Notes under the pieces: generated by a model | Databases searched by the model: none | Told to the model about the DNA's origin: nothing | Seen by the model: only the letters and a program-made list of their open reading frames with translations | Assembly: GCA_964016885.1 (NCBI GenBank) | Contig: OZ024741.1 | Span: 280,550,001-280,614,000, forward strand | Origin: Eledone cirrhosa | Taxonomy: Eukaryota | Direction: 5' to 3' | Length of the DNA stretch: 64,000 nucleotides | Shown: positions 17,300 to 52,388 of the stretch, in pieces | How the letters are laid out: every line of letters begins with the position of its first letter | How positions within the stretch are numbered: the stretch's first letter is position 1 | Position numbers and translations under genes: made by a program

Positions 17300-19249
17300 G
17301 TAAGACAAGATATTTCTCATAAGAACACTTGTTTGCTTTTGTTGAACTCAAGATAACAGCATTATTTCACAAACTGCAAGATAACAGTAATTCAGCTATA
17401 TTCATTGAAGATAAAGACAATTTGGATCAGCTATTATTCTCATTACCCCATCTTCCTCCTCTCTCTCTCTCTCATATATATATCATTTCTTATCATTTTA
17501 TATATATATATAAATTAAATAATATGACTGAAAACATAGAAATTTGTTTTATATCAGACATTTTTCTCATATCCATTGCATGGTTGTTATGGTTCTACAA
17601 ATTCATACATTTGTATGGATTATTGTAACAACAACTGTTTTACATGTAAATGTTCTTTACACTCAAACTATTTAACTATGACAACACAGCCAACCTGTGA
17701 GAGCAGGGGAAAATGACATAATGGTGATGATTGTGGTGGACCAGGTGCTTTTTGTTGTGGCACCAGTACTACCACCTTGCACAGTGGACTGGGTGCTTCT
17801 TGATGTGGCACCAGTACTATCACCTTGCACAATGGACTGGGTGATTTTTGTTGTGGTGCCAGAACTACTACCTTACAGGGTGGACAGGGTGTTTTTTGTT
17901 GTGGCCACTTTACAGTATGTTATATGTTATACATTGTTATATGATACACAATATCATTATTTCCATAATGTTTAACTCTTTTGCTACCAGAAACTGGTTC
18001 TAAGATACACAGTTATTTGTTTTTAAATGTTTAAATTTAAGCCTACTATCATAATTTTTACAAGATAAAATTTTATATTCCAAATACTGGCTTAATTAGT
18101 TATATTACTAAATACATTCAAATTCTTGATTATTTTCAAAAGTAATTAAGAATCATAGACAGTGGCTTTCATTAGCAATGTAGTAATGAAGGGTTAAAAA
18201 AAAAAGATGTTAGCTTAAATAATAAATATATTTTGATAAAATACATGATAAATGCATCCAGTACACTCTGTAAAGTGGTTGATGATAAAAAGAGCAGTCA
18301 GCCCAAGAAAACTTGTCAAACAGTGGGTAGGGAAGACTTTTCAGCTGTGTTAAAGATATGACAACCTGCCAAGTGTTCGTGGTTTACACAAATGCACCCA
18401 CTAGACTCTGTAAAGTTGTTGGTAATAGAAAAAGCAGCAAATTGTAGAAAACCTTGCAAAAAAAAAAGTCTGCTGCTAGGACTCTTCAGTTGTTCCTAAG
18501 ACATGACAATCTCCCTTGTGATGGTGTTCCAATAAAATGCACTTAGTAATACATGGGTTCCTATGTAAGTGCAAACACCTAGCCAACAATGAGGTCAGGA
18601 ACTCTACTTTGGGTAGTAAACTGCTCTGTTAAAGACACATCCAACCATTGCTAACAAACGGGAAATGATGATGGTGATTTTGGGTAAGCTAAGCTGGCTA
18701 CATGGTAAACCTCACCTATGTACACAGTCAGCCCCACTTGTAACCTCATTGTCAAATTTTATTGATTCCAATAGTTATTTGCCATTAAAATCCTTAACTA
18801 CATACTTTCCAACCAAAATTTCCCTCACTAATTAGTTCTGCTGTTAGTCCAAATGTTGTACTAAATAAGATCAACTAGTAGTCAGTTATATAGTAATGTG
18901 TTCTGTTTGTTCACTTTTGATTTGTTTTTAGTAGTTTGCCTTCTTTTTTTGTGGTACTAGCAATAAGGAAGTAAATGACTTGTAATGACATGTTGCTTCA
19001 GTTTTTAACATTTCCTCCGTATTTCTCATCTAAGTACTAGTGTTCTTGTAAAAGAACCTACCCCCTCTTTTCTCACTTTCCCTCTCCCTTCCTCCCATCT
19101 CCCCATCAGATATTTCCAGAGAATGTACTGGAGTTTGTCTTACTGACTGTCCCACCTCAGCTACTTTTCTCATGAATTTAATTTGGATGGGAAAAAATAT
19201 TCCCACCTCTCCCTTCTTCATAAGCTTCTCTCTTTCTCCCAACCACCTC

Positions 19250-19285
19250 TTTCCTGATGAAGGACTAACGTTTGATACATTGAAA
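19250..19285 (+). ncRNA. Decayed minimal hammerhead motif
   Basis: TTTC-CTGATGA-AGGAC-TAAC-GTTT-GATA-CA-TT-GAAA. Reconstructs to ...GTCC-GAAA-CG-TC-GAAA largely by CpG-type transitions; probably inactive. Confidence 0.45.
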
Positions 19286-19555
19286 CATTCCTTTTCCAAC
19301 AAGTGTGAAAGTAATAAGACTGTGTAGTTGTATCCTCGTGTTTGTCTATTTCTTTTATCTTGAACTAGTGTGTGTGTGTATGTATGTATGTATGTATATA
19401 TATATGTATATATATAATTATTATTATTATTATTATACTTTGGGGGGGGTTTATGCTGTCAATAAAAACACACACACCTGTTGGATTTCACTTCAATTTA
19501 TTATAAACTCCCAGTTAGTTAGTTTAATAACTAGATGGTTGTTTAGTTGTTGATT

Positions 19556-19598
19556 GTCAAAGCTCTGTCGTAACACATTCTGTGACCTCCTCAGTGAC
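19556..19598 (-). ncRNA. Decayed hammerhead motif, same family as 32661
   Basis: Minus strand GTCA-CTGAGGA-GGTCACAGAATGTGTTAC-GACA-GAGC-TT-TGAC (GAAA to GACA). Flanks 19436-19610 resemble 31325-31490. Confidence 0.5.
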
Positions 19599-19744
19599 TA
19601 ATTTTGTTTCTTTCCTTTGTTCTGTCCTACACCATCTTGAGAGGCACTCCAGGTAGAGCCCCTACTTCTCCGAATTAAGAGATCATAGCTCCAATACTAT
19701 GGGCAGACACCAGTTCACACTGTAAAGTGGTTATTCTGGTGACA

Positions 19745-20062
19745 TGCAAAAAGTGCCCAGTCCACACTGTCAAATGATCATGTTGATAACATGACAAAAA
19801 GTGCCCAGTCCACACTGTCAAATGATCATGTTGATAACATGACAAAAAGTGCCCAGTCCACACTGTCAAATGATCATGTTGATAACATGACAAAAAGTGC
19901 CCAGTCCACACTGTCAAATGATCATGTTGATAACATGACAAAAAGTGCCCAGTCCACACTGTCAAATGATCATGTTGATAACATGACAAAAAGTGCCCAG
20001 TCCACACTGTCAAATGATCATGTTGATAACATGACAAAAAGTGCCCAGTCCACACTGTCAAG
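19745..20062 (+). repeat. 48-bp minisatellite, about 6.5 identical units, within an RTE-tailed SINE body
   Basis: Unit ATGACAAAAAGTGCCCAGTCCACACTGTCAAATGATCATGTTGATAAC; element continues to a (GAT)n tail at about 20315. Confidence 0.95.
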
Positions 20063-21092
20063 TGGTCATGTAGGTGTCACAACAAAAAGCACTCAGACCA
20101 CACTGTATTGTGGTTGTGTAGGTGTCATGACAAAAAGCACCCAGCACTCACTGCATATGTGGTTGGCATTAGGAAAGGCATCCGGCCATAGAAACCAAGC
20201 CAGAAACAGTTCTGTATGAGCAAGACATGGTCATCTGATTTGACTGACTCAAATCGAACAACTTGTCTAACCCATGCTAACATGGAAAATGGATATTAAA
20301 CAGTGATGATGATGATATATACACACTCACACACACACAAACAATTTGTTTGTGTTTGTGTGCACGCATGTACTTAAAATTTTTTAACTCTTTTGATACC
20401 AAGCTGCTTGAAACCTCCCTTGTTTCTATGATACAAATCCGTACTTGGTAGAGTGATCGTTATACATGCTTCCACTGTCACAAACCCCTAGTTGCCTAAA
20501 TGTGTATTTAGTTTTTTTCATATCAATCAGCCTGAAACCTCCTTTAGTTCTATAATACAAATCTGTTTATTTTAAGATGTTTATATTTATCTAAAATATA
20601 ACATATAATTATTTATTAAATTATGTTACAAATGCCATCTTAATAATAATTTCAAATTTAGGCACAAAGCCAACAATTTTTAGGGAGGGAGAAATCAATT
20701 ACATAGATCCCTAGTACATGACTGGTACTATTGACCCTGGAAGGATGAAAGGCAGGATTTAAACTCAGAATGTAGAAAGTGATAATTAAATACTGCAAAT
20801 CATTTTGTCCGACGATCTATCGATACTGCTAATCCTGCTGATACTACTCAACGTTTGCACAAAATCATTTTGTCCGACACTCTACCAGCACTACTCAATG
20901 TTTGCACAAAATCATTTTGTCCGACACTCTATCTGCACTACCCAATGTTTACACAGAATCATTTTGTCCAATGCTCTACCAATCCTGCCAATCCTACTAT
21001 TACTGAATGTTTGCAGAGGCATAGAGAGCAAGTTAAATTTGTTAATCTTTGGCAATGTAGCTTACAAGGTCAGAGAGAAAGTGAGTATACAA

Positions 21093-21142
<50 letters not shown>

Positions 21143-21493
21143 TGAAGCAGAGATTCCTTGGTGGTAGTAGTTGTAGTAATGACATGCATGGGGAGGGGAA
21201 GTATGGAGTGATGATGATTGGTGATGAAGCATACACCTTAACATACTACTAACACTGTATGAGTCAGAGTAACATTGCAAACAGGCAGCATATCAAAGAT
21301 GTTGATTAGTTGGTAGAATGCTGAAGAAAAATTCTATTAGGTTGTGCTGCCAATAATACAATCAGCCTTATGGACCTTAATCATTAGAATCAGTGTTTTA
21401 GCTTGAAATTATTAAAGTAAAGAATTTGCAGACAGGCAGACTACAAGAGAATTTGAAATCAAAACCTTTTGATTGCTGACAGTTGTTTTTTTT

Positions 21494-21531
<38 letters not shown>

Positions 21532-22188
21532 GATTTTTTTTTGTTTTTTCTTCTCTTCAGTTTTTTGTTTTGATGCAAATTTAAATATCATCAGCTTTAT
21601 TAACTCTTCTGATATGAAACCACCTGAAATTGCCCTTTGTAAGGACTCTCATTAACTTATGTTCTAAATACCAGGTTAATAATGAGGTAGTTAGTTGTAT
21701 TACTGTAATGACCGAAAGAATACGATCGCGAACACAAACAGCCGAAATAGGGTTCCTCTAAAGGGATGGTAATATTAACATAGATACTCTTTATAAAGAG
21801 AGATGGTCACATCTGAAATGGCTTTGATGATCCATCTGCCTAATCAGGGCTGAGCTTGGGGCTAAAAACAACAACAAAAAACACATATAATTAATCTAAC
21901 TCTAATTATGTTAGCAACAGGTTGACCCTTTCAAATTTTCTTGAGATGCTTCCACCTTCATTTGACATTTAAGAGGTTGCTTTAGCCCATTTCATACCAA
22001 CATGCCTTAAATTACTCCCGTTTTATGATATAAACCAGTTCATTTCATACCAACCAGCCTTACACTGCTCCTGTTCTATGATAAATCAGCACTTTTGATA
22101 CCAACATGCTTTAAACTACTACCATTTTATGATATAACTTAGCCCGTTTTTAAATGTTTATACTTATATTAAAACCTTCCATTATAAG

Positions 22189-22382
22189 ATAGTGTTTTAT
22201 GAGAAGGCTACAGCAATTGAATTGGGACATTAAATGATAAAAATAATAACAAAGTTGTTGGAATGTTATCTTGAAGTTGTTTAATAATTAAGCAACTTCA
22301 AGGTAACATTCCATCTTTATCATTATTTTTAACATTTAATGTCCCATTTGTATTGTTGTAGCTTTCTCATAAAACACACTAT
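22189..22382. repeat. About 190-bp near-spacerless palindrome (foldback)
   Basis: ATAGTGTTTTATGAGAAGGCTACAGCAAT...CTTGAAGTTGTTTAAT a ATTAAGCAACTTCAAG...ATTGTTGTAGCTTTCTCATAAAACACACTAT. Confidence 0.9.
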
Positions 22383-23433
22383 TTTGTACACGTTACACAA
22401 TACTTCAAGCAAACTGCAACACTCTCATCATAATTTTATCTAAGAAATTATTGTCAACTAAGGTTCCAAACATCAACTTAATAAAAAGTTATCTTACTAA
22501 TTTTCTTAAATTAAAAAAAAAATATTTTCAAAATAATTGAAACACATTGGTAGTTTATTTCATTGGAAATATTGTAACAAAAAAGTTAATGCTTCCTTCC
22601 CCTAGACTGGTACAATAAATCACCCTTGATGAGATTTAAACCATGGAACTGCAGGGGCTTGAACTCATTGCTGACAGGTCTAAGTTTTAATACTTTTACC
22701 ACTGCACCAATGCAGATATCCTGTTTAATAATTGTTTCTAATATAGACTCAAAGCCAGCAAGTTTAAGTGAGGGAAACGTCAATTAAATCAACCCTTATA
22801 CTTTACTGGTACTTTATTTTATTGACCCTGGAAGAGTGAAAGGCAAAGATGACTTTGGTGGGATTTAATCTCAGAATGTACATGATGTAACTCAATGTTA
22901 CAAAGCATTCTGTCCAACACTCCAATGATTCTGCCAATCCACCACCTTTTGTCCAGTTTAATAATAGCTGTCATGGCGGCAGCTCTTCTTAGCAACTATT
23001 TAAACTGCAGACACCACAGCAGGAATACTTTAAAGAATGTTTGAGTAAGTGTGTGAGGAGAGAGACAGAGTGATCAATAGTGTTCTGACTGGCAGACAAG
23101 TTCTGTTGACCTTGTTTACACTGACACAGGCTCCTGGTGTTGCTACGACTACCTTGCAGCTTTTGCTATCATTTATACATACCTACATGCATGTATATAT
23201 AGATGCCAGCATTGAATGATACTATACCACCTGGAGTGTTGTTGTATTTATTGATCAGTGAGGTGGGTGGAGAACTGACTCAAGCTTCAAATTCTCTATC
23301 ATTATGTTACCATTGTAATCAGCACAACTTAGTGAAGGGCATTTATGTTAAGTCCTGTAGTGTCACTCATAATGAAATTTGTAATATTTTGATTATCTGA
23401 TTACTTTGTATATGTGATTACTATATATATATA

Positions 23434-23839
23434 TCATCATCATCATCATCATCATCATCACCATTTTACGTCCGTTCTTTCATGCTAGCATGAGTTAGAT
23501 GGGTTGTCCTGTTGTGGGCAGTGTTCGGTCGGCTGACCTTGTCTTGCTCATACAGGAACTGATTCTGGCTTGATTTCTACAGCTGGATGCCCTTCCTAAC
23601 ACCAACCTCATTTACAGTGAGTGCTGGGTGCTTTTTTGCCATGGCACCTCGACAACCACTTTGCAGTGGAATGATAGGGACCCAGTCCTATCATCTCATT
23701 TCTACAGCTGAGTAAACTGGAGCAATGTGAAATAAAGTCTCTTGCTCAAGGAAACAACCCATCACCTGGTCCGAGAATTGAACTCACAACCTTTCAATTG
23801 TAAGCCCAATGCTCTAACCACTGAGCCATGCGCCTTCAC
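23434..23839 (-). mobile_element. Full-length tRNA-head, CORE-like, RTE-tailed SINE
   Basis: Minus strand: A box TGGCTCAGTGG, B box GAGTTCAATTC, CCTTGAGCAAG..CTCAGCTG core, GGTGTTAGGAAGGGCATCCAGC body, CATGCTAGCATG..GGACGTAAAA(TGA)n tail. Confidence 0.8.
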
Positions 23840-23916
23840 ATATATATATCCAGGAAAAACTTGAACCGTTAAGGTATTTTTTCTTGGTTATATCAATATT
23901 TATAAAACAAACTTTG

Positions 23917-23977
23917 TATTTTATCTGATGAGAGCGTACCAAAGTTTTGGTACCCTTGAAATATATATAATAGAATA
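23917..23977 (+). ncRNA. Type I hammerhead ribozyme motif (intact core)
   Basis: TATTTTAT-CTGATGA-GAGCGTACCAAAGTTTTGGTACCCTT-GAAA-TATATA-TA-ATAGAATA. Stem I 8 bp (1 G-U), long stem II with one C-C mismatch, palindromic stem III ATATATAT. Predicted cut after 23969. Confidence 0.8.
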
Positions 23978-24017
23978 AATATGGTTTTATAAATATAGTT
24001 TCCATTTATTTAATATC

Positions 24018-24056
<39 letters not shown>

Positions 24057-24399
24057 GAGGTTGGTGCTAGGAAGGGCATCCAGCTGTAGAAACCAAGTCA
24101 AAATCAGTTCTGTATGAGCAAGGCATGATCACCTAACCTGGCATTGCTGACAACCAGGTAATTCGTCTAACCCATGCCAGCGTCGAAACATGAATGTTAA
24201 ACGGTGATGTCATTTTGTTTCTTGTTATATACAGGTGGTATGTGGAGATGGCTGTGTATTTGTTATTTATATTTGTGTGTATGTAACTGGCAACGGTTCT
24301 CACTTCACACCCACCCACCCCACCTCTACCACATTCGGTATACATGTCCGATGCTGTATGCTAACCACTCCCTCGTGAATATATCACAGACAGACAAGG

Positions 24400-27300
24400 G
24401 GCGGACGGAGGCTCCATAAACCGCAATGTAGGCAGCTCGTCTAGGAGAGCTACCACTCCGAATAAATTGGTGCGGGGTAGAGGAGTCCCCTAAGTCCAGT
24501 AAGACAACTTCCCTAGTGCTGGTGGCACGAATAAAAGCACCCAGTCCATGCTGTAAAGTGGAGGGGTGGTTAGGGCCCCTGAGTTCAGTGAGACAACCTC
24601 TCTAGTGCTGGTGGCACGAATAAAAGCACCCAGTCCATGCTGTAAAGTGGTGCTGGTGTTAGGAAGGGCATTCAACCAGTACTACTGCCAAAATCTATGA
24701 GCGCGACGAATGAAATTTGCAACAACTGCGTTAACAGCAATAACATTAACCATGTTAGGGCTGCGCACGGTAGTGGGGTGGCTGGTGTGGCCATGTGTGA
24801 GAACCCCACGACCATTATCAAGCAATCGCACAACAGGAAAAAGAATGAGTTGTCGCATCTCAGAGTTGCCACACTTAATGTTGGCACTCTAACAGGTAGA
24901 TCTGGTGAGATAGCGGAGATGCTGGAGAGAAAGCATGTGGATGTGTGCTGTGTGCAAGAGGTGTGATGGAGAGGTGCCTCTGGAAGACTAATTGCAGGCA
25001 AATATTGTAGTTTTAAGCTTTTCTGGGTGGGTAATGATGATGGGTTAGGTGGGGTGGGCATATTACTGGCTGAGAGAAGGATCAATAAGACGATAGAGGT
25101 GTTAGAGTTAGTAATAGAATAATAAAGCTTAGGTTAGTTGTAGGCAAGAGACTACTGACAATCATCTCTGCCTATGCTCCCCAGGCAGGCCTAGGTAAAG
25201 AAGAGAAAGACTGCTTTTACGAGCAACTTTTACAAACAGCCTTAATGATAGACGACAGAGACATTGTTATGCTAGCAGGGGACTTCAATGGACATGTTGG
25301 ACAGCTCCAGGATGGATACACTGGGGTACATGGTGGGCACGGTTATGGCTCAAGAAATGAAGAAGGAGTGACGCTTCTTGAATTTTGTGATGCAATTGCA
25401 CTAACCATTTGCAACACTAACTTCCAGAAGCCTAACAACCACCTAATAGCCTACAAATCAGGCGAGCACATAAGCCAGATTGACTTCCTGCTAGTTAGAC
25501 AGCGAGACAGACAGATGGTGTCAAATACTAAGGCTTACCCAAGGGAAGAATGTACCCCGCAGCATAGGTTAGTCGTTAGTGACATCTCAGTAAGCAAGAG
25601 AAAGAATGAGACATACAGGAAGGTGTGGAAAAGAAATGTCTGGAAGCTAAAAGACCTTTCATTAAAATATAAATTTAGCAAAGCCCTTCAAGATGTGTAC
25701 GACGAAAAAGAAGACGGTTTAGAGTTGTATGACATAGATGATAACTGGAATTTCTTGCATGACAACTTACTGCAGGCTACTGAACAAACTTGTGGCTGGA
25801 GCAGAGCTTCCACCAGACAGAGAGTGACCTGGTGGTGGAACAGCACGGTAGATAGGGCCATTAGAGACAAAAGACTGGCATGGAAAGCTTGGAAAAATGG
25901 TGGGAGTAGAGACGGATACACAGCCGTTAAGAGAGAAGCTAGACGTCAGGTGTACTTAGCACGCAGGGAGGCTGAGAGTAGGAGGTTTGCCAATGTTCTG
26001 CGACGGGAAGATCAGAGACGTGCGGTGTTCCGCATTGCAAGGCAGTGTACAACAGTAAAAGTACAAAGTACAACAGATGCCCTCCTCATAGTGAAGCAAC
26101 TACAAGAGAGGTTCTTAGAGAAGAATAAGCCACTATACTTAGCTTTTGTTGACCTAGAGAAGGCCTTTGATAGGGTACCCCGATCTGTCATCTGGTGGTC
26201 CCTAAGGAAACTAGGGGTAGAGGAATGGCTTGTGAGGACAGTGCAAGCTATGTACAGGGGTGCTGTCAGTAAAGTCAAGGTAGGAATGGAGTTTAGTGAG
26301 GAATTCCAGATACAAGTAGGTGTACATCAAGGTTCTGTCCTCAGTCCACTCTTGTTCATTATAGTCCTCCAAGCCATAATGGAGGAGTTTAAGACTGGAT
26401 GCCCATGGGAACTTCTTTATGCTGATGATCTGGTTCTTATAGCAGAATCAGTAAAGGAGCTAGAGAATAAATTCTGGCTATGGAAACAGCAGTTGGAATC
26501 AAGAGGCCTGAGAGTGAACATAGCTAAAACAAAGGCGTTGATAAGTAGAAGAGAGGACAATAGTCTGATTCCATCAGGGAAATGGCCATGTTCGATATGT
26601 AGGAAAGGAACTAGCATAAATTCCATAAAATGTACGCAATGCAGAACTTGGGTACACAAGATATGTAGTGGGATAGTAGGCAAACTAACAGGTAGGGAAA
26701 ACTATGTATGCAGTAGATGTACATGGAAAGTTGGCAGTAGTAATCGATGTGATAGACTCATTTTTCCAATGCAGGTGGGTTCTATAGACGTTGTTGATAG
26801 CTTCTGGTACCTAGGTGATCAGATTAGCATGTGAGGGGGTGTTCCGAGGCCATAGTACTTAGAATAAGGACAGGTTGGAAGAAGTTTAGGGAGCTGCTCC
26901 CTCTGTTGACAAAGAAGGGTTCCTCCCTGCATACGAAATGACGGTTATATGATGCCTGTGTGAGATGCGCGATGATGCATGGTAGTGAGACATGGGCAGC
27001 AACTGCAGAAGATATGCAACGGCTGGAGAGAAATGAAGCAAGTATGCTCCGTTAGATGTGCAATGTCAATGTGCATGAACGACCAAGCATGGACGAGTTG
27101 AGAAAGAAACTGGGTATAAGAGGGATAAGTTGTGGTGTGCAGGAGAGAAGGCTGAGATGGTATGGACATGTGATGCGCATGGAGGATGACCGATGGGTGA
27201 AGAAGTGCCAGGAAGTCCCAGTGGATGGAAGATGCAGTAGAGGTAGACCACGAAAAACATGGGTGGAGGTGGTGAGAACAGACCTCAGATCGCTGAAACT

Positions 27301-27401
27301 CACAGAGGAGATGACGAAGGACCTTGACGGGTGGAGAGATGCTGTGCTGAATAGGACCTGTCCAACCCTTGCAAGCAGGGGAAAGCGGACGTAAAATTAT
27401 G

Positions 27402-27405
<4 letters not shown>
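24400..27405 (+). mobile_element. RTE-clade LINE, near full-length, pseudogenised (APE + RT + PHD finger)
   Basis: LRVATLNVGTL, CCVQEV, GDFNGHVG, SQIDF (APE); AFVDLEKAFDRVP, QGSVLSPLLF, LLYADDLVL (RT); ERRLRWYGHV. Contains stops and an internal deletion. Confidence 0.95.
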
Positions 27406-27435
<30 letters not shown>

Positions 27436-27494
27436 TATACGTATATATATATTGTAATGTTCTCGCAACTGGTGCAGCCAGTTGTTGAGGTGCC

Positions 27495-29265
27495 ACTCTA
27501 GAGGCTTTTACAGTCAGTTATTGCCATTGGTCTCTATTCTCCATCATGCATAGAAGGGTCTCGATGTTGTGACCAGTCTAGTCTTTGATGTTGTTGGACC
27601 AGGATTTTCTTTGTCTGCCTCTTCTTCACCATCCCTTGACTGTGCCCTGAAGGATGGTTTTGGACAAGTTGTGGCGGGATATATGACCATACCAGGCAAG
27701 CTTCCATCTTTTCACTATTGCAGGGAGTGATACCTGTCTGCCAGCATATTTGTTAACTTGCTGCATGTCAAAGCTGTTTGCTTTGTCCTCCATGAATGGG
27801 GTGTGTAACATCCTTCTGAAGCACTTGTATTCAAATGATTGGAATCTTCATTCCATGTTAACTGTAAGAGTCCAACTCCCACATCCTTACAAAAGATCAA
27901 AATCACCAAGGACTTGTACAGTTTGAGCTTCATTAGAAAACTGATGGAGTTGCTTTTCCATATGACATTCAGCTTTCCCATGGCAGAAGTGGCCTGGGCA
28001 AATCTTGTCAGAATCTCCTTTTGAGATTGGCCATATTTGGGCAGAGTGGATCCTAGGTTCTTGAAGGTGTCCACTTCTTCAAGTCTTCCTCAGTTCAACA
28101 TAATGCTGGTTGCTGTATTCTGATTATTACTGTTAACCAAAATCTTGCTCTTTTCTGAGCTGATCTTCATTCCATATGCTCTTGATACTTTTTCCAATCT
28201 GGTAGTCAGCTCCTGGAGTTCTGATTCATTGCTTCCTAACAGGTCAATCTCATCACAAATCACAGTTTAGAAATGGGCCATCTTGCAATGGAAACTGAGG
28301 TTTTGGGGAGTCTCTTGCATGATGTTTTCCAGGAAGATGTTTAAAAGCACAGGAGAAAGGAGAGACCCTTGTCAAACTCCCACTGTTGTTCTGAAGAATT
28401 CTCCAATGTTGTTATTCAAGAGAACTGCACTGTTTGAGTTGTCATATAGTGCTTTAATTCAAGAGGTTGATATCAATGTTGTAATCCTTCATCACCTTCC
28501 ACAGACCCTCATGCCAAAAACGGTCAAAGGTTTTTTCAAAGTCAATGAAGTTAAGATAGCGGTCAGATTGGTGCTGCAGATGTTACTCAATGATTAGTTT
28601 GATATATATCTGTTCTCTTGTACTTCTTGTGGGCCTGAATCCTACATGTTCTTCTGCCAGGATTTCTCCTGTTTTTGCTGGGGTGGCTAATGAGGCTGAT
28701 TGTTCTGTAATTCTGGCAGAGTCTTAAGTTTCCTTTTTGGGGAATGAGTATTATTAGGAATTGGGTCCACTTCTTTGTTTCCCATATCTTCTGACAGGTA
28801 ACTGTCAGTCATTAATAAGTTTCGGCCTTCTATATTTTAGGAGCTCTGATGGAATGTTATTGACTCCAGAAGATTTACTATCCTTAAGCATGTGCATCGC
28901 CTCTTTGATTCCTACTGGAAAATTGGAATATCCTCAATTTCATTATTCTTATTGGTGGAATTGTCCAGGATGTTGATGTCATGTCTGAGTTTGTGGTTAT
29001 ATCTTTTGATGACATTGGCCTCATCTGTGAGGAGCAAGCCAGTTTTGTCCTCCATGGCAGTGGTAGTGTATTGCTTTCTTTTTGTTAGCATTTTGAGGGT
29101 TTCATAAGCAGCCTTGCTGTTGCCATTTTTTATTCCAGCTTCAATGTTTTTGCACTGGTCTGATATCCACTTCTCTTTATCTTCCCTCATTTTCTTCCTC
29201 ACCTTCCTATTCATAGCATTATATTGTTGTCTTGATCTGTTAGTTTGGTCTTCCTCAAAATTGCT
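27495..29265 (-). mobile_element. Decayed RTE (BovB-like) LINE fragment
   Basis: EEVDTFKNLGSTL...ILTR.AQATSAM.KL..IWKS.SIS...KLKLYKSLV; KLAWYGHI.RH.LSKTILQGTV.G. Confidence 0.85.
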
Positions 29266-30233
29266 ACAGAAATGTACTCACCTGTGCACATGCACATGTA
29301 GCCATGCATGTGCATACAGATGCATGCACATACATACACACGCACATGTGCATACACATGCACGCAGCCACAGCAGCAGCAACAAAAGTTGTAGGTGTTA
29401 CATATACCTGCTGCTATGACAGTTTCAGTAGACATAGTTTAAGGTATGATATAGTATGATATATCTGGATCAACAGATATCTGCACTTTGTTGTTTGTCT
29501 GACTATGGATGTGTTATAGTTCCTCTCAATCTAATCTAACCTGTGGCTCAGCCTCAACATAAATATACCTCACACACACACACAGCCGAGACAAAATAAT
29601 AGGGGTTACATACATATCCCTGCCACAAAACACACACACACACACACCAGAGACAAAATAGGAGTTACAACATAAACACACTACGCATACATACACAGAG
29701 CAAAGACAAAATAGTAGGAATTACATATCCCTGCCACAACATTCACAGCACTCATAGTTGAAGATATAATATATCTGAATTAACAGATCTGTAAGTTGCA
29801 CCTGGTCGTTTGGTTGACTGGACTATGTGCTATAGGTTGGCTTAATGTTGGCTAACCTGAAGCTACACAATAACAAGGATAAAATGGATACTCAGGAGCT
29901 GCATTTTAGAATCCAATCCTAAAACTGGTTGTTTTGACACAGTTCACTACACTTCAACATTTGACACAGTCCACTGGCTTTATATGACATTCAATTTATC
30001 TGCTACCACTTTAAAACTAACAAATTATGATTCAGTATGCTCTCAGCCTAAGTTAACACCCCTCTATATAATTTACTCACGATTTAATCAACTTTCATAA
30101 CAATCACTCTATGATTACAGGTTTCAGACATTAATCCTTAATTAATAGGCTAAGAAACCTAATAATACTATTACTGACATGTAATTGTGGACCCATCATC
30201 AAATAAGCACCAGTTGTGTTTTACCAATGTAAT

Positions 30234-30343
<110 letters not shown>

Positions 30344-30365
30344 GATATGTGTGTGTGTATGTATG

Positions 30366-30396
<31 letters not shown>

Positions 30397-30885
30397 ATGT
30401 ATGTATATATATATGTGTGTGTGTATGTATGTATATATATGTGTGTGTGTGTGTATATATGTATATATAGTTATATATGCCAACACAGAAATATTCATTA
30501 CCTCCCTGTATGATCTGAGTTCAAATCCCGCCGAGGTTAACTTTGCCTTTCATCCTTACGGGGTCGATAAAATAAAGTACCAGTAATGCACTGGGTAATT
30601 GCTGGCCTTGTGCCAAAAGTAGAAACAATTATCATTTAACATCCATTTTTTCCTTCTAGCAAGGGTTGGATGGGTTTTCACACACAGACCAAGTTAGTAC
30701 TCAAGTGGGTTTACTGACCTTTCAATTGCATCTCACTTACATAGTGCCCCAGACTTTACTGATTGCATTTTATCATGACACTCACATTAGTGATGTCTTT
30801 AGCACAACTGAATAGATCTCCTGGCTCCTTGTTTGGCAGGTTTTCTATGGTTGAATGCCTTTCTTATGTGTGTGTGTCTATATAT

Positions 30886-31282
30886 CATCATTTTACGTCC
30901 GCTTTTCCCTGCTTGCAAGGGTGGGACGGGAACTGATTCTGGCTTGATTTCTACAGCTGGATGCCCTTCCTAACACCAACCTCATTTACAGTGAGTGCTG
31001 GGTACTTTTTTTTCCGTGGCACCTCCACGTCCACTTTACAGTGTGGGCTGTGTGCTTTTTTGCCATGGCACCTCCATGACCACTTTGCAGTTGAATGATA
31101 GGGACACCAGTCCTACCATCTCATTTCTACAGCTGAGTAAACTGGAGCAATGTGAAATAAAGTGTCTTACTCAAGGAAATGTTGTTTTCTTGAGCAAGAC
31201 ACTTTATTTCACATTGGTCTGAGAATTGAACTCACAACCTTTCGATAGCAAGGCCAATCTAACCACTAAGCCATGTGCCTCC
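30886..31282 (-). mobile_element. Second full-length copy of the same SINE
   Basis: Co-linear with 23434-23839, with an internal deletion in the tail. Confidence 0.8.
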
Positions 31283-31327
<45 letters not shown>

Positions 31328-31429
31328 ATGCTTTGGGAGGGCCATGTTGCTTTCACTTCAATTTATTATAGATTAAATTTATAAATTTCCGGTTGGTTGG
31401 TTCCACAACCAGACGATTGTTCATATATT

Positions 31430-31472
31430 GTCAAAGTTCTTTCGTCACACATTCTGTGACCGCTTCAGTGAC
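31430..31472 (-). ncRNA. Inverted copy of the 32661 hammerhead motif, core mutated
   Basis: Reverse complement of 32661-32703 with CTGAAGA changed to CTGAAGC. Confidence 0.55.
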
Positions 31473-32660
31473 TGGCGATTCTTTTCTTTGTTTTTGTGCC
31501 TCTCCTTTGTTCTGTCTTACGCCATCTTGTTTTTGTGTGTGTTGTGTGCTTAGTTTGCGCATGTGTTACATCCGGGTGTCTGTGTGTGTTTATATTTGTT
31601 TATTTATTTGTTTATTTACATGTTACTGGTTGGTTGTTTGTTCTGTGTGTGTGTGTGTGTGTGTGTGTTTTCATTTTGTCCTTAATTGTAAGTTGTGATG
31701 TTGCTATTCCATTCATGTTTTCTATTTAATTTTGGTTGGAGTTCATTTATGTTTATTGCCTCTGTGATTTGTCTAAACATTGCGTCTTTTCTGTGTGTAG
31801 ATTCTATTTTTATTTCTATGTTCTCTAATTTACCCTTATGTTCTATTTTAGCATGTTGGTGGAGTACAGATGATTCTTTACTATCTTGAAGCTCTCGCCA
31901 GTGTTCATTTATCCGTTCTCCTATACTACGAGCTGTCTCACCTATGTACACTATATTCTTAGCTTATAAATTTAGAAGGGCCCTAGATAAACATAAACTC
32001 AATATTAAGATAGTAGAAAGACCAGGTACCTCCATAAAAACAATTATTAGCAATACATACCCTTTCCAAAGACCTCCCTGTATAGATAAGAAATGTATAA
32101 TCTGTAAACTAAGCCCCCATATTAACTGTAAAACTAGAAATGTAGTATATAGCATAAGATGTACTGAAGGACAATGTAGAGATAAGAATATAGTGTACAT
32201 AGGTGAGACAGCTCGTAGTATAGGAGAACGGATAAATGAACACTGGCGAGAGTTTCAAGATAGTAAAGAATCATCTGTACTCCACCAACATGCTAAAATA
32301 GAACATAAGGGTAAATTAGAGAACATAGAAATAAAAATAGAATCTACACGCAGAAAAGACGCAATGTTTAGACAAATCACAGAGGCAATAAACATAAATG
32401 AACTCCAACCAAAATTAAATAGAAAACATAAATGGAATAGCAACATCACAACTTACAATTAAGGACAAAATGAAACACACACACACATAGAACAAACAAC
32501 CAACCAGTAACATGTAAATAAACAAATAAATAAACAAATATAAACACACACAGATACCCGGATGTAACACATGCGCAAACTAAGCACACAACACACACAA
32601 AAACAAGATGGCGTAGGACAGAACAAAGGAGAAGCACAAAAACAAAGAAAAGAATCCCCA

Positions 32661-32703
32661 GTCACTGAAGAGGTCACAGAATGTGTGACGAAAGAACTTT
32701 GAC
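32661..32703 (+). ncRNA. Hammerhead motif in Penelope-like element 3' region
   Basis: GTCA-CTGAAGA-G-GTCACA-GAATG-TGTGAC-GAAA-GAAC-TT-TGAC, about 200 nt after the GIY-YIG stop codon. Confidence 0.65.
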
Positions 32704-32920
32704 AATATATGAACAATCGTCTGGTTGTGGAACCAACCAACCAACCAACCGGAAATTTATAAATTCTTTAATTTATAATAAATTGAAGTGAAAGCAACTG
32801 ATGCGTGTGTTTCTTATTGGCAACATGACCCTCCCAAGGTATAACAATATCGGTTTCAACACACGTTTTCAGATAAAGAATCTTCCTAAACAAATTCAGA
32901 AACGAAATATATACATATAT

Positions 32921-33129
32921 ATAATATAAGATCAAAAGATGGTTAAAAGAGTTCCATGTATTTTATTATGCGCATTTCAAAAACAAATATGATCATGGGA
33001 TGATACTTGCGTTCTCATCATTCTTTATCTGATGAGAACGCAAGTATCATCCCATGAGGATATTTGTTTTTGAAATGCGCATAATAAAATACATGGAACT
33101 CTTTTAACCATCTTTTGATCTTATATTAT
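32921..33129. repeat. Inverted repeat, 100-bp arms, 9-nt spacer, 2 mismatches
   Basis: 32921-33020 is the reverse complement of 33030-33129; contains the 33024 hammerhead. Confidence 0.95.
33024..33088 (+). ncRNA. Type I hammerhead ribozyme motif (intact core)
   Basis: TTTAT-CTGATGA-GAACGCAAGTATC..GATATTTGTTTTT-GAAA-TGCGCA-TA-ATAAA. Palindromic stem III ATGCGCAT. Predicted cut after 33083. Confidence 0.78.
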
Positions 33130-33300
33130 TTATACTCCAGTCCTATAAACTGTTGAGTGCTACTTATCCGATATTTACATTGCTTTATTGTGCTACAATA
33201 AAACTCACCTCCTACATATATATATATATATATAGTGGTAGAACACTGGAAGGTAATATCCGTAGTGGTAGAACACTCAGTCCATGGGACGAGTTAGGTA

Positions 33301-33741
33301 GAAGTTGTTGCACAACAGTTAGTTCACCATACCGAGAACAATTGTTTCACCTTAGCGGATCCTCAGCTCGTAATGGGCATGGTTATACGGAACAGGAAGG
33401 ACAACCGTACGAACGCGCATGCGCAGAAACCCGTCACTTCACACAGGCAATACTAAAATGCATGCGAGAGTTGTAAGGGAGATAACTGCGAAAGTCCGAA
33501 AAGTTTTTAGTTGATAAGAAAAAATATTGATGTTGTTACAATAATTCATTCAATCCGGAGCTTTGTAGTTATGCAATAGGTGTTTTTAGTATTGCCTGTG
33601 TGAAGTGATGGGTTTCTGCACATGCGCGTTCGTACGGTTGTCCTTCCTGTTCCGTATAACCATGCCCATTACGAACTGAGGATCCGCTAAGGTGAAACAA
33701 TTGTTCTCGGTATGGTGAACTAACTGTTGTGTAACCACTTC
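33301..33741. mobile_element. MITE with about 157-bp TIRs and TA flanks
   Basis: 33301-33458 is the reverse complement of about 33585-33741 with few mismatches; CpGs retained. Confidence 0.85.
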
Positions 33742-35215
33742 TATATATATATATATGAGAGAGATAGAGACCTAGCAACGGCTGATGAGTGGGTATCTTC
33801 CTTGTACCCATCTTTTCCAAGTTTTCTGTATCCCTCATATCCCATCTGTTATCTGTTATTTTTTTTACCAATATCATCCATAAACAACACAACACAGCCT
33901 GATTTTGAAGTCCAAGCTTTTGTTATATATATATGCACACAGGCACAGACAGGCATAGAGAGAGCTAACTAGCTCAGCCATCGTGCAGTAACTCTTTACA
34001 ATACCTACTCTACTTTCCTAAGTATTAATTATTTAGCTGAACAATGGTTTTACTTGTTTAAACTGGTAACTCCCAATATATATATATATATATATGTGTG
34101 TGTGTATATATATATGTGAGACTTTTTTCCTACTATATCAAGCATTAAACTAATATCTATCTTCATTGTACTGTATCATCTGGTTACTTTTTACACACAC
34201 ACACGCTCGCGCGCGCGAATGAAAGAATATGTTTGATATGCTTTATTCATATCAAGCATATCCTTTCATTAACATATCATTATTTCGTTTTTCTATGCTA
34301 GCATGGGTTGCACAAGACATGTTTTAGGCACTATTCTACAACCAGTCGATCTCCATGACACCAATCTTTTCTTTTTTTTTTTCTTATTTTGAAGAGAATT
34401 TCAATCAGTCTGGTCTTTGTAAATGTTTTTGTGTGGGTTTGTGGTGCACATCCTTGCATCCAATTATTAGGTTCTAAATTTTAAAACTAATTATATTTAG
34501 AATGTTTTGTAATATAATGTTAAGCAGTTCATTTTCATTATTGACATTTCTTTGAGGTATGATAGAGAACAACTGGTTCTCTTCAACAAACATTTAATGT
34601 TCTATCCAATTATTTCTTGGAGATTTGAAAGGATTTATTTCAAGTTAGGTTACCTTTGGGATTTTTCTTTTATATTATTTCCATTTTTGCAGTAAACCTT
34701 CTGTAGCCTTTATACTAATTCCAATTGATATTTTAAAATCTTGAGCTAGCCTGAATGTTTTACTTGTGACTCACTAACATTCACTCTTAACAAATAATAA
34801 TTGTGAGTTCATTCAGGAAATATATGTGGAAATGCTAAAGCCATTAAAATAAATGTAGAAATATCAAAACTTTTATAATACACACATATTATTTGAACTT
34901 TGAATATTCTATGTTCTACCAGTTAACTTTTAAAAATCTTGTTCTTTTGTTACATTTCCTTTGATTTGTTCGTGAAAATTGTTGACTTCTGGTATCACCC
35001 CCCCAAAAAAGTGTCGTTTCCAAGGATTCATAAACATAGACATGTAAATATGTGATCCAGTTATTGAATTTTAGAACTTTACAATTATGTTTGTCAATTA
35101 CTTTCTTAACTATAAGGAACTTGTAAATGCGATTATCTTTGTGATATTTCAAGAAATGTGTTATAAAAGACTGCATTTTATTGATTTCAAAGCGTCATTA
35201 GATTTTTTATATATA

Positions 35216-36520
35216 CAGGGTGCGGACGATATTTGTTCGCAAGATTACTGTCTATGAAAAAATAATTTAGTAGTTTTATTTTTTAAGATATATTTATCAA
35301 ACTTGGGTCATTTTTTTTCTTCAAGACTTGTTCTTTCGATCTTACTCGATAAATCCGCCATTGGCTTTGATGGCGGCCTCAAGGCAGCCTCGCAACCGGC
35401 TACAGGCCTTCGTCACTGTCCCCCGACTTAGGCCCGTAAAGGCACTTGTGATCCTGGCCTTCAGATCGTCTTTCGTATTGCAGCTAGATCTGTTGGTGTC
35501 TCGTTCCACTGCGCCCCACACAAAGAAGTCGAGGGGGCTGCAGTCAGGCGAGCTGGGAGACCAGATGTCAGGTGAAGTGTAGTCGACGAAGTTCTCTGAC
35601 AGCCAGGCTTGGGTCTTTCGGCTGGTATGGCAGGGCGCTGAGTCCTGCTGCCACACGTACGGCCTATCTGCAGCTACCTGGTCGATCCAGGGCTTTACTA
35701 CCTCGCTCAGAACGCGGATGTAGCCATCGGTGTTCAGCTTGAGGCCCTCAGGGAAGAAGTGAAGTGGCATGACGTCACCTTGACTGCTAATGACACCTAA
35801 GACCAATATTGTCGCTGGAAAGTTTGTCTGCATGACTCTGGGCACGTCTTTGGATGAGACAGCGAGCCACTTGTTGTTCTGGGAGTTGATCTTCTGGTCT
35901 GAGCAGAAGTTTTTCTCGTCGGAGAAAAACCACAATATGTCTGGCTCCAGTGGGTGTTTCAACTTGTTGATCAGCTTCTTTGTGTGCTTCAGTCGCTTAT
36001 CTTGCATCGCCTGGGACAGAAATTGTCCTTTACACATCTTCTTTGAAACGTAGCGAATGTCTTCATGTACCACCAGCCTAATGAGCTTTCATCCACGCCT
36101 TTCTCCCTTGCAATTGCACGCATCGACTTGCTAGGTTCATTGTTGATGATATCCTGAACTTCAGCGACGAACTCGGGCGTTCTGAAGGCGTCAGATCGTC
36201 GATCATGTGTTTTCCTCTCTGATGTTTCTTCGTAGTCAAATCCTGAATCTTCCAATTCCTTTCTGACCTTTTCCACCATTCTCCTGCTGATGCTGAGAAA
36301 GTCTGAAATTTCCTTATTTGTCCTCCCGGCGCGGATTCGAAGAACTCCGTGTCTCTTCCACAAATTTGGAGGTTCAAAATTATTCATAACCAATTATTCT
36401 GAAAATAAATAATGGAAATATAGTCACTGTTTTTATGAAGACAAGAGTGACAACAGAAGTAAAAAGAATTTGCACAAAATTAGCAGTTGAAAATTGCGAA
36501 CAAATATCGTCCACACCCTG
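35216..36520 (-). mobile_element. Full-length Tc1/mariner DD37D (maT/mori-type) transposon
   Basis: 27-bp TIRs CAGGGTGYGGACGATATTTGTTCGCAA and TA target duplication. Transposase 36387-35342 with WFFSDEK, WQQDSAPCH, SPDCSPLDF (37 aa between 2nd and 3rd D); one frameshift near 36078. Confidence 0.95.
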
Positions 36521-36593
36521 TATATATATATGCAAAAGGCAAACAGAAATAACAAAGCAAACGACACAGTACAATGATATAGTAGGAAAATAG

Positions 36594-36629
36594 TCTTAAT
36601 GTTTCAGAAGCTAGTTCTTCATCAGAAAA
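36594..36629 (-). ncRNA. Minimal hammerhead motif
   Basis: Minus strand TTTT-CTGATGA-AGAA-CTAGC-TTCT-GAAA-CA-TT-AAGA. Stem III ACAT is plausibly CpG-decayed ACGT. Confidence 0.55.
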
Positions 36630-36860
36630 TAGAATGAGAAATTGGTGGTGTGTGTAAATATATTGCTGTGTGTATCTTGATTTTTAGAATAGGTGTACCA
36701 TATCCTTACATGTTTTAATAGGCAACTAAAAGAGTTGGCACCAGGAAGGTCATCTGGGTGTAATACATTGTCTTAAAATAACCCATACCAACATGGAAAA
36801 GTAGATGTAAAAATAATAAAAATAATTATATATATATATATATATTTTTTTTTCTTTTCT

Positions 36861-37470
36861 TTTTCAATGCTATTCGATAATTCTGTCTGATCGTTCAAAA
36901 TAATCTTCTTGTATTTTAAAATCCCATAATTCTTCCCTTATTACAGTTATATGCTCGTTCGATTATGGCCAAAATTTTGTGGATTTTATTCTATAAACTT
37001 CTCTCGATTTTTATAAAATAACCTCCTCACTCGTTTAAATATGGTCGAAATTCTAGGATTTTATAAAATAACCTTCCTGCTCCCTACTATTCCCCCCCCC
37101 CCCCATACATTGTATACACGCCTGCTGGCTCTCTCTCAATCCCATCCCCTCTCTCTTCAAACATAAAATAAACTGTTGCGGGGTACGAAACTCAGAATTT
37201 GTCGACCCATATTCTTGGCTACATCGCTCGCTCGGTCTTCTGTGAAATGTAATGTACGAATCCTATTTTCTCGTCTCTCCATGCTCCCTTGTCCATTCAT
37301 CTATCTGTATCATATCGTCAAGAATACAACCTTTTCAATGCTATTCGATAATTCTGTCTGATCGTTCAAAATAATCTTCTTGTATTTTAAAATCCCATAA
37401 TTCTTCCCTTATTACAGTTATATGCTCGTTCGATTATGGCCAAAATTTCTAGGATTTTATTTTATAACCT
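36861..37470 (+). repeat. Direct repeat: 117 identical bp at 36861 and 37332 (period 471)
   Basis: TTTTCAATGCTATTCGATAA...CGATTATGGCCAAAATTT occurs twice. Confidence 0.9.
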
Positions 37471-37589
37471 TCTCGCTAACTACCCCAGATCCCCGCGCCC
37501 ACTCACCACCATTATTATTTGGACTAATCATAAGTCAGCGGCCTATGTTATCACTTAAGTTTAGACCTGGTTGCCTTTTGATATGATGG

Positions 37590-40500: not shown

Positions 40501-40690
40501 GATCAAAATAGACGGTAGTTACAGAGCAGGCAGACCCAGAAAATCCTGGGACCACTTGATAAAATCCGACCTCACACACTTAGACCTCTCCAAGACAATG
40601 TCACTGGACCGAGATCTTTGGCGCTACTCAGTAATACAGAAGACCCACCTTGCCTGAGTACAAAGCGAAACCTACAGTCAGTAGGCACCT
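37590..40690 (+). mobile_element. Second RTE-clade LINE, different family, near full-length, pseudogenised
   Basis: FRVGTMNVG, ISVYAPQ, GDLNGHV, CYKGKGDALDRGNYR, MQFGF, AFVDLEKAFD, LLYADDL, PHD finger, LHGSETW. Confidence 0.95.
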
Positions 40691-41035
40691 CTTAACCAAA
40701 ATATACCCCCGTCCCACTACCCCTACCCCCACCGCCATCTACACCACCCCTTTCGATGTAAAGCTATGTTGGTAGCACAAAATCCAGTCCTAAATAAATG
40801 AGGTCGTGTAGGTGTCACGATAAAAAAACACACAGTCCACGCTGTAATGTGGCCGTGTAGGTAACACGGTAAAAACCTCCCAGTCCACACTGTAAACGTG
40901 GTTGGTATTAGGAAGGGCATCCAGCCGTAGAAAACCCGACAGACAGTCCTGAGCAAGACAACCAATCTTGCCTCAAATGGGACAATTCCCCTCTAGACCC
41001 ATGCTAGCGTGGAAGATAGACGTTAAACGATGATA

Positions 41036-42213
41036 TCTGTATATATATAAAATTAAGTATGTTTGTGTGTGTGTATTACCTATAGGGGCCTACATCTTAC
41101 GACTGATTTTCATGAAACTTTACAGGCTCATAGATTTGTCATCGGGGAGTGTTTTCTATATATTGGCGTATGGTTTTTTTATTTTTATTCCGGGGTCATT
41201 CTGCAGATAAAAATCGATGGAGGGCACCTTTTTTTAGGTATCGAAAAATAAGATTTTTGGCTCTAGCTCCCACATTTTGCCACTGATTTCGTTCAAATTT
41301 TAAAGCAAAATAGAATTTATCATTGCACATCCTGTAATGGCTTTATATTTTGCATTTGTTGTTCAGGGACGACGTGGCAGCCGCTTAAATATTCAAAAGT
41401 ACACTTTTAGACTCAAATTCCACTTTTTCGGCTCTAGCTTCCACATTAATCAACCTACTTTGTTCAAATTTTACACTACGCTAGATCTGATTATTTCACG
41501 TCTTAAAGTGGCTTTACATTTTGGACTTTTTTGTTCAGGAACAGGGTGGCAGCTGCTTAAATATTCGAAAATACCACCTTTTCACTCAAATTTCCGCCTT
41601 TTCGGCTCTAGCTTCCACATTTTTCAACCGATTTCGTTCAAATTCGAAATTTCGGCTCCACCTCACACATAAATCAATTTATTTCGTTCAACTTTTATAC
41701 TACGATAGAACCTATCATTGCCCATCTTATAGTGGCTTTACACTTTGCATTTTTTGTTCAGGGACGGCGACGTATCATTAGCTCCCACATTTTTCAACCG
41801 ATTTCATTCAAATTTGAAACTTCGGCTCCACCTCACACATAAATCAATTTATTTGGTTCAACTTATATACTATGATAGAACCTATCATTGCACATCTTAT
41901 AGGTGGTCAAAGGCAAAACGATGGCCACTGACGTTGTCTGGGCTTTTAGTTGTGTATTTGAGAATTCATCGGTTTCCAATCAAGTAGTGTGAGGAAATTT
42001 GGCTTAGTGTTAGAGGTCATTACCTCCTTCTCACAGCATGCCCCTTCGCCAGTCACCTGCGTTTCTCAATGATAGAGGTCATCACCACCCTCCCCCGCAT
42101 GGCCTGTGTGTGGCCATAGATAAGTCATCGAGAAGCAGTCGCTAAGATCAACACCTTTTCATCAAAGCGCATATTATTTTACCTACCCAGGCAACGCTGG
42201 GTACTGCTGCTAG
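41036..42213 (+). mobile_element. Non-autonomous Helitron with internal ~170-180 bp tandem repeats
   Basis: A|TC 5' end; 3' hairpin TACCCAG-GCAACG-CTGGGTA followed by CTAG|T; no target duplication. Repeats begin near 41261, 41432, 41606 and 41778. Confidence 0.8.

Positions 42214-52282: not shown

Positions 52283-52388
<106 letters not shown>

What the first reader, a model, noticed from the sequence alone, without database searches (positions are those of the whole stretch)
23850..24022. About 170-bp mini-element built almost entirely around an intact sense-strand hammerhead
Seen: the insert lies between two (TA)n tracts. The core is canonical. Stem I (TATTTTAT/ATAGAATA) extends past an internal loop by a further 13-bp pairing, ATATTTATAAAAC/GTTTTATAAATAT. 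Established: an internal loop in stem I is where natural type I hammerheads make tertiary contacts with loop II. Inference: this is the best candidate for an active ribozyme, oriented to cut the host pre-mRNA after 23969.
Basis: partly seen in the sequence, partly recalled or inferred. Interest (0 to 1): 0.72.

Follow-up and report, generated by a model that had tools for sequence, protein, structure and literature searches.

The report
Penelope end-repeat copy carrying a hammerhead
This is one of over five thousand copies of the end-repeat of a Penelope-type jumping gene, landed inside an intron of the EXOC6 gene; its self-cutting RNA motif is predicted to work as a pair of molecules, so it likely cuts the host message little if at all.

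Summary
The hammerhead is real, as are its stems, the 13-bp extension and the sense orientation: it lies in a 38-kb EXOC6/Sec15 intron. It is not a free-standing mini-element. The 173 bp is the pseudo-LTR of a young Penelope-like retroelement (RT plus C-terminal GIY-YIG, likely Hydra clade). It flanks the ORF in four full-length copies, and 5,882 exact 27-mers span its cut site. The core departs from canon: G10.1-U11.1, an AUA site, an 11-step stem II, and a 2-bp helix III in an 8-nt palindrome. Sister families keep different palindromes, pointing to dimer design; the monomer fold is predicted at about 1e-4. Under 1% of copies start or end at the cut, so templates were uncut or rejoined. Copies share a sharp 5' edge at an initiator-like TCACT and two fixed 3' ends, so this is likely a short run-off cDNA from the RNA's 5' end. 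No RNA data were available; activity is untested. The scan noted other Penelope/hammerhead families in this genome, but not this sequence. New member of a known kind.

The parts
23850..24022 (+). Solo pseudo-LTR copy (short form, no tail) of a Penelope-like retroelement; junction microhomology extends it to 23847 (TAT) and 24026 (ATAT)
   Evidence: same sequence upstream and downstream of the RT/GIY-YIG ORF in L107-L110
23840..23849 (.). Left target tract (AT)5; last 3 bases shared with the element's own sequence just 5' of +1
23850..23887 (+). 5' hairpin (23850-59 with 23878-87, one G-U); the shared 5' edge of most copies lies at its foot
   Evidence: (-11.5 kcal/mol)
23896..23908 (+). 5' strand of 13-bp distal extension of stem I (pairs with 23984-23996)
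   Evidence: pair probability 0.9-1.0; 78% of cells paired over 6 related families
23917..23924 (+). Stem I 5' strand (pairs with 23970-23977)
   Evidence: predicted pair probability only about 0.2 in the monomer
23925..23931 (+). Hammerhead core CUGAUGA
23932..23957 (+). Stem II: G-U, A-U, G-C, C-C mismatch, 7 bp, loop AGUU
   Evidence: position 23932 is G in 41 and A in 33 of 76 copies
23958..23969 (+). GAA, palindromic helix III ATATATAT (23961-23968) and A17 (23969); predicted cut after 23969
23970..23996 (+). 3' strands of stem I (23970-77) and of the distal extension (23984-96)
24023..24051 (.). Right target tract (AT)14.5, joined at the element's first fixed 3' end
17300..55267 (+). Host intron of EXOC6/Sec15 (37,968 bp; GT at 17300, AG ending 55267) that holds the copy in sense
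   Evidence: PF20651 hits at 17108-17353, 55155-55412, 58809-59060; splice sites, in-frame join of consecutive profile positions

Best explanation
The 173 bp is a solo copy of the pseudo-LTR of a young Penelope-like retroelement (likely Hydra clade), inserted in a (TA)n tract in sense within an EXOC6 intron, likely made as a short run-off cDNA from the 5' end of uncut element RNA, and its hammerhead is predicted to need a partner molecule or the element's protein, so it likely cuts host pre-mRNA little. Steps. Shown: the sequence flanks an RT + GIY-YIG ORF on both sides; copies end in (TA)n at two fixed 3' sites about 100 nt apart (about +172-177 and +270-275); most share a 5' edge at -4 to +19; under 1% of counted junctions lie at the cut site. 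Inferred: the element is transcribed from an internal promoter starting near TCACT; its endonuclease nicks (TA)n; RT starts inside the RNA at one of the two sites and, when it uses the 5' repeat, runs off the RNA end after about 175 or 275 nt; extension of both target strands gives the head-to-head pairs. Inferred: the 8-nt palindrome forms helix III between two RNAs (double hammerhead) and serves the element's own RNA processing.
For:: in 4 of 4 fetched full-length loci (L107-L110) the 173-bp sequence lies at the 3' end and the 173-bp and/or tail sequence lies just before the ATG; unit about 3.67 kb. RRLRW(R/H)AF, SDKT, QMDIANY, FDITMGSSDS, GGLYRDDM, CNCRIKSNC, IYKC..YIGA, FCNLC, SCRH match the Hydra features in PMC8557442 section 11 and, by eye, its alignments. 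Counts: 608 exact 49-nt hammerheads (308 +, 300 -; control 0), 5,882 and 5,051 exact 27-mers across the cut against 45 with (TA)n joined 5' of the cut and 27 ending in (TA)n at the cut. 5' edge: 600 exact +1..+19 matches but only 41 with the 9 upstream bases (52-76% expected without an edge); among 29 copies picked by their tail alone, 14 start at -4..+19, 12-fold the per-base rate further 3', p = 9e-9. Seven distinct helix-III 8-mers from 13 hand-picked family representatives: 13 of 14 inner pairs WC or G-U, 1 of 20,000 shuffles. Monomer fold 7e-5. Literature: single PLE minimal hammerhead showed no cleavage, dimers low (PMC4209133); anole PLE hammerhead needs the protein, is dispensable for insertion, and the tail spans two internal RT start sites (PMC11167929); Adineta pLTRs carry an Inr-like TCACT, 5' palindromes and solo copies (PMC3846280).
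Against: No RNA data tested the start site, expression or cleavage. The fold model ignores Mg2+, tertiary contacts and co-transcriptional folding. An axolotl hammerhead with a 2-bp helix III and U-U at the base of helix II still cut 22% in 1 h as a monomer (PMC7229834), so low monomer activity is possible. The double hammerhead (-49.6) beats two monomers (-45.8) but not the free dimer optimum (-53.6), and ATATATAT is a weak duplex (-3.2 versus -10.5 for family B). In sister family B the 5' ends, read by eye, cluster about 10 nt upstream of its CTTCACT, not on it, which weakens the initiator reading. Pfam found no RT or GIY-YIG in 5 fragments of this ORF; the clade rests on motifs, not a tree. 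The unit (3.67 kb) and tail (about 100 nt) are longer than the <3 kb and 30-40 bp described. Rejoined circles would also leave intact junctions.
Confidence: 0.8

Rival explanations
1. One reading: an active monomeric hammerhead, stabilised by the long stem I, that cuts EXOC6 pre-mRNA co-transcriptionally after 23969 to a degree that matters.
For: Core intact, sense orientation; the 13-bp extension is predicted to form almost fully and would clamp the ends; a 2-bp helix III hammerhead showed 22% monomer cleavage in axolotl; AUA is a natural site (PMC1636495 abstract).
Against: Monomer fold 7e-5, helix III pair probability 0.0; AUA was the slowest of four triplets tested; helix lengths unlike the 6/4-bp contact geometry; thousands of equal copies, cDNAs made across an uncut site; nothing marks this copy as special.
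Confidence: 0.1
2. The sharp 5' edge is not the RNA start but a reverse-transcription stop or a preferred joining site (TAT microhomology to (TA)n at the foot of the 5' hairpin) on cDNA begun in the 3' repeat, i.e. an ordinary 5'-truncated copy.
For: A hairpin sits at the edge here and, by eye, upstream of the hammerhead in several sister families; TAT is shared with the target; 5' truncation is typical of PLEs.
Against: Other TA-rich sites (helix III, +45) collect far fewer ends; inverted arms end at the same edge although they join to element DNA, not to (TA)n; stops are usually expected on entering a hairpin, not after passing it (own knowledge).
Confidence: 0.25
3. A self-propagating non-autonomous family (retrozyme or SINE-like) in which solo copies are transcribed and copied in trans.
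For: Short copies outnumber long ones (53 of 76 aligned copies have a free 5' end; sets chosen by identity to short queries); PLE pLTRs hold promoters (PMC2377424 passages); retrozymes are proposed to derive from pLTRs.
Against: No same-strand pair within 1 kb among the first 100 of 608 listed hits, but 8 head-to-head pairs (counted by eye); solo and long copies share the same variants in like proportions, e.g. 30 G/22 A versus 11 G/11 A at 23932. One variant carried by this copy (A at 23892) was seen in 6 of 51 solo and 0 of 23 long copies, too few to tell.
Confidence: 0.1

Closest known systems
Hydra-clade Penelope-like elements, incl. Hydra-1_Obim (Craig et al. 2021, PMC8557442; passages, section 11, supplement part 2 of 59 and searches seen)
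   Same: Single RT + C-terminal GIY-YIG ORF, RW-motif, DKT, CxCX5C linker, CxxC and CxH, (TA)n targets, type I hammerhead with short palindromic helix III and often U before GAA.
   Different: A different family: four strings from this element gave 0 hits in that supplement and the Hydra-1_oBim hammerhead differs; RWR/RWH for RWK; 3.67-kb unit with 1.1-kb 3' UTR; tail about 100 nt.
PLE minimal/dimeric hammerheads (Cervera and de la Pena 2014, PMC4209133; parts 1-2 of 4 read)
   Same: In pLTRs, mostly as single truncated copies or close opposite-strand pairs, long helix II, palindromic helix III, dimer design.
   Different: G10.1-C11.1 is replaced by G-U or A-U; stem I is long (8 bp + 13 bp) rather than 4-5 bp.
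Poseidon PAc of the green anole (Frangieh et al. 2024, PMC11167929; parts 1-2 of 4 read)
   Same: Two internal RT start sites define an optional tail; AT-rich targets; uncut RNA is the template.
   Different: There the hammerhead overlaps the ORF start and RT starts without homology to the target; here the hammerhead ends about 190 nt before the ATG and both 3' ends fall at AU-rich sites matching (TA)n.
Metazoan non-LTR retrozymes (PMC7229834 passages; Li et al. 2026 preprint, part 1 of 5)
   Same: Small, AT-rich, non-coding, type I hammerhead, PLE-related.
   Different: Not tandem; a direct piece of a coding element; ends do not follow the cut site.

Membership tests
EN+ Penelope-like element (pLTR) | Direct repeats (pLTRs) flanking one RT + GIY-YIG ORF | tested here: met
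   (L107-L110); motifs read from single copies; Pfam gave no RT or GIY-YIG hit on 5 fragments
EN+ Penelope-like element (pLTR) | 5'-truncated and head-to-head inverted copies; optional tail | tested here: met
   tail about 100 nt against 30-40 bp described
EN+ Penelope-like element (pLTR) | Hammerhead in the pLTR, element sense | tested here: met
Hydra clade | DKT in place of DKG; CxCX5C linker; CxxC and CxH in the endonuclease | tested here: met
   SDKT, CNCRIKSNC, FCNLC, SCRH (each in at least 1 of 4 broken copies)
Hydra clade | RWK motif | tested here: inconclusive
   RRLRWRAF / RWHAF: same place, R or H for K
Hydra clade | No CCHH between GIY and YIG; endonuclease C-terminal | tested here: met
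   read by eye: IYKCTVKTRDKIFNYIGAT after the RT
Hydra clade | Insertion into (TA)n | tested here: met
   3' ends run into TA repeats in 58 of 60 rows (L005 and L018 are interrupted)
Hydra clade | Generally under 3 kb (a tendency in the source, not a criterion) | tested here: not met
   3.67 kb; hence filed firmly as EN+ PLE and only as likely Hydra
Hydra clade | Groups with Hydra RTs in a tree | not tested
   reference proteins were seen only in the paper's supplement and compared by eye
Canonical monomeric type I hammerhead with loop-loop contacts | Core CUGANGA, GAAA, NUH | tested here: met
   AUA
Canonical monomeric type I hammerhead with loop-loop contacts | G10.1-C11.1 and helices I about 6 bp, II about 4 bp | tested here: not met
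   G-U; 8 bp and 3+7 bp; U at 11.1 in 13 of 13 representatives
Canonical monomeric type I hammerhead with loop-loop contacts | Self-cleavage | not testable with these tools
   needs in vitro assay
Dimeric (double) hammerhead | Self-complementary helix III/loop III kept by compensatory change | tested here: met
   13 of 14 inner pairs, 1 of 20,000 shuffles; families share ancestry, so the p is a guide only
Non-LTR retrozyme | Tandem units, each with a hammerhead | tested here: not met
   single copy here; no same-strand pair within 1 kb in the first 100 of 608 hits
Non-LTR retrozyme | Expressed as small circular RNA | not testable with these tools
   no RNA run available
Domesticated intronic hammerhead (amniote type; recalled, no call) | Single or low copy, conserved across species | tested here: not met
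   608 exact 49-mers, 5,882 exact 27-mers; conservation in other species not testable, no relatives held

The most novel reading that the evidence does not exclude
The thousands of dispersed pLTR copies are conditional, trans-activated ribozymes: when the element is expressed (germ line, stress), its RNA pairs through AUAUAUAU with sense intronic copies, or its protein chaperones them, and host pre-mRNAs such as EXOC6 are cut. A retroelement would then switch on cleavage of many host transcripts at once.
Probability: 0.07. Interest if true: 0.75.

Novelty: new member of a known kind. Interest (0 to 1): 0.3.

Why it matters
As a locus it is ordinary: one copy of a transposon end. The family is still useful. 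Its copy ends mark, at genome scale, a likely RNA start and two likely RT start sites, and show that cDNA was made across an uncut or rejoined hammerhead. That fits in vivo what was shown in vitro for one anole element and bears on the open question of what PLE hammerheads are for. It gives a compact substrate (about 175-275 nt) for a Hydra-type element and a natural series of palindrome variants for dimer tests. If intronic copies were activated in trans, Penelope expression would reach host RNA processing.

Tried and rejected
Rfam at gathering score: no hit. Naiad reading (my first recall): rejected, the endonuclease is C-terminal. Intron idea (GT at 23874 to ACTCCAG in the tail, which would splice the hammerhead out): dropped, the AG is CAC, CAA, CGG or CGT in sister families while ACTCC stays; no GT..AG joint among the joints shown, but those runs are contigs not on record as RNA. 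Cut RNA as template, either end, including the idea that the cut exposes a (UA)n end for priming: 45 versus 5,882 and 27 versus 5,051; copies joined at the cut to an inverted arm or other DNA are not counted by these patterns. Solo-only subfamily: not seen in 76 aligned copies. Expression: no RNA holder listed. Empty-site allele: no joint skipping the insert among the 15 joints shown, 51 more not shown, repeats skipped; uninformative. Cis partner for a dimer: two other sense hammerheads in the intron (32665, 33029) have different helix III sequences; no second copy of this family in the window; the gene beyond the window was not searched. Lunse et al. 2017 on PLE dimers is not held, recalled only. 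Earlier-notes look-ups near the locus and by sequence were empty. A pairwise protein comparison with a second family in L031 was not obtained.

Full report
Observation. A strict scanner finds it once in the window and never in 100 resamples; fold z = -3.6. Rfam does not call it. The left tract is only (AT)5. The single-stranded core is canonical, but pair 10.1-11.1 is G-U, the site is AUA, stem II is 3 bp + mismatch + 7 bp, and helix III is two A-U pairs inside ATATATAT.

Host gene. Pfam scans of 124 of 277 stop-free segments (those that looked coding-like, less some overlapping frames) found three consecutive EXOC6/Sec15 exons on +. Splice sites give exons 17133-17299 and 55268-55407 joined in frame. 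The insert is thus in sense within a 37,968-bp intron. The genome is 3.0 Gb; that it is an octopus is my recall of the repeats plus the wording of note e1-8671701, not tested.

What it belongs to. The own-genome search gave 1,342 candidates, 40 scored, with full-length matches at 96-100%. Of 30 loci, 9 run on upstream into a long AT-rich region and an RT + GIY-YIG ORF. Searching with the ORF found copies with the 173 bp just before the ATG. In four fetched full-length loci the repeat flanks the ORF on both sides; in L107 it starts near 413, ATG is at 733, and the 3' repeat is at 4087-4251, ending at the same point as the window copy. The protein motifs match the Hydra clade description (PMC8557442 section 11) and by eye its alignments, but this family's strings are absent from that supplement; Pfam did not detect the domains in 5 fragments and no tree was built. 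Published Hydra hammerheads also often have U before GAA and short palindromic helix III. Exact counts: 608 copies of the 49-nt hammerhead, 308 and 300 per strand, control 0; 5,882 of a 27-mer across the cut. One insertion can hold two arms.

How the copy was likely made. 3' ends fall at two sites, about +172-177 and +270-275, and run into (TA)n; this is the PLE tail signature, which in the anole element corresponds to two internal RT start sites. 5' ends are not random. Among 29 copies chosen by tail sequence alone (the query's own locus dropped), 14 begin at -4..+19, 6 at +45..+91, 2 at +110/111 and 7 extend past -50 (rate 0.039 versus 0.003 per base, p = 9e-9). Genome-wide, only 41 of 600 exact +1..+19 matches keep the 9 upstream bases. 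The edge sits at TCACT, an initiator-like motif noted in rotifer pLTRs, and at the foot of a hairpin; Drosophila Penelope starts inside its pLTR. I infer run-off cDNA from the RNA 5' end (about 0.6); an RT stop or joining hot spot is the rival, and family B's edge does not sit on its CTTCACT. Head-to-head pairs with both arms ending at this edge fit extension of both target strands; notes e1-8665316 and e1-8802758 read other families here the same way, unchecked. Solo and long copies share variants, so no separate non-autonomous family is needed, and there are no tandems among the first 100 listed hits.

Does it cut? Structure is under selection at family level: across 6 related families stem II shows changes on both sides in 7 of 10 pairs, stem I is 100% paired, and the distal extension is 78% paired with 1 two-sided change (the structure came from this copy and the sequences are related). 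Seven distinct helix III 8-mers are self-complementary (13 of 14 inner pairs), the mark of a double hammerhead. The monomer fold is predicted at 7e-5; the dimer fold is better than two monomers but not the best dimer, and this palindrome is weak. AUA was the slowest triplet in a viroid test (abstract). Against my reading, an axolotl hammerhead with a 2-bp helix III cut 22% in an hour alone, and fold models omit Mg2+. Junction counts show that templates were uncut or rejoined: 45 versus 5,882 and 27 versus 5,051, unlike what note e1-8803865 reports for another family and like the anole result. No matching partner lies in the window. No RNA evidence could be had (see Tried and rejected).

Novelty. 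Hammerheads in pLTRs, solo pLTRs, (TA)n targeting and a cephalopod Hydra family are all published. Seven library searches listed no paper on this family or on a fixed 5' edge read as run-off cDNA, but I read only parts of eight papers, Repbase and Dfam were not searchable, the preprint's supplements were not seen, and most of the Craig supplement was only word-searched. Verdict: new member of a known kind; interest 0.3.

Noticed in passing
window 31320-33230: Two more Penelope-like pieces in the same intron: a GIY-YIG ORF at 31890-32459 (PF01541) followed by a hammerhead at 32665 with an inverted arm at about 31380-31720, and family B (hammerhead at 33029, helix III ATGCGCAT, inverted arm 32916-33020; 1,476 candidates in the genome; Hydra-type endonuclease upstream in L089, L098, L106).
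   Followed up: partly
tails of L017, L028, L088, L006, L061: A motif ACTCC...GAGTGCT is kept in the tails of five hammerhead families whose other sequence differs; a candidate binding site for the element's protein between the two RT start sites.
   Followed up: partly
L067, L061, L006, L028 upstream of the hammerhead: Each family appears to have a hairpin 5' of the hammerhead, with G-U pairs that work only on the sense strand (read by eye).
   Followed up: no
30 loci flanks: The genome is dense in hammerheads: at least 13 distinct families turned up in about 100 loci of 3-8 kb, often inserted in one another's (TA)n.
   Followed up: partly
window 23547-23839 and 30935-31283: The left flank is a high-copy repeat whose minus-strand start looks tRNA-derived by eye (ARAGORN finds no tRNA); both window copies abut a (TA)n tract that holds a Penelope insertion.
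   Followed up: no
window 6014-6274, 6592-6717, 49040-49501: A further GIY-YIG fragment and Hydra-like RT fragments (tblastn).
   Followed up: no
window 25089-26831, 37881-40347, 35342-36393: LINE fragments with RT followed by a PHD finger, and a transposase-like fragment with HTH.
   Followed up: no
L031:2658-3569 and window 33230-33340: A second Hydra-type family whose N-terminus resembles Hydra-1_Obim by eye; its upstream sequence also begins right after family B's (TA)n in the window.
   Followed up: no
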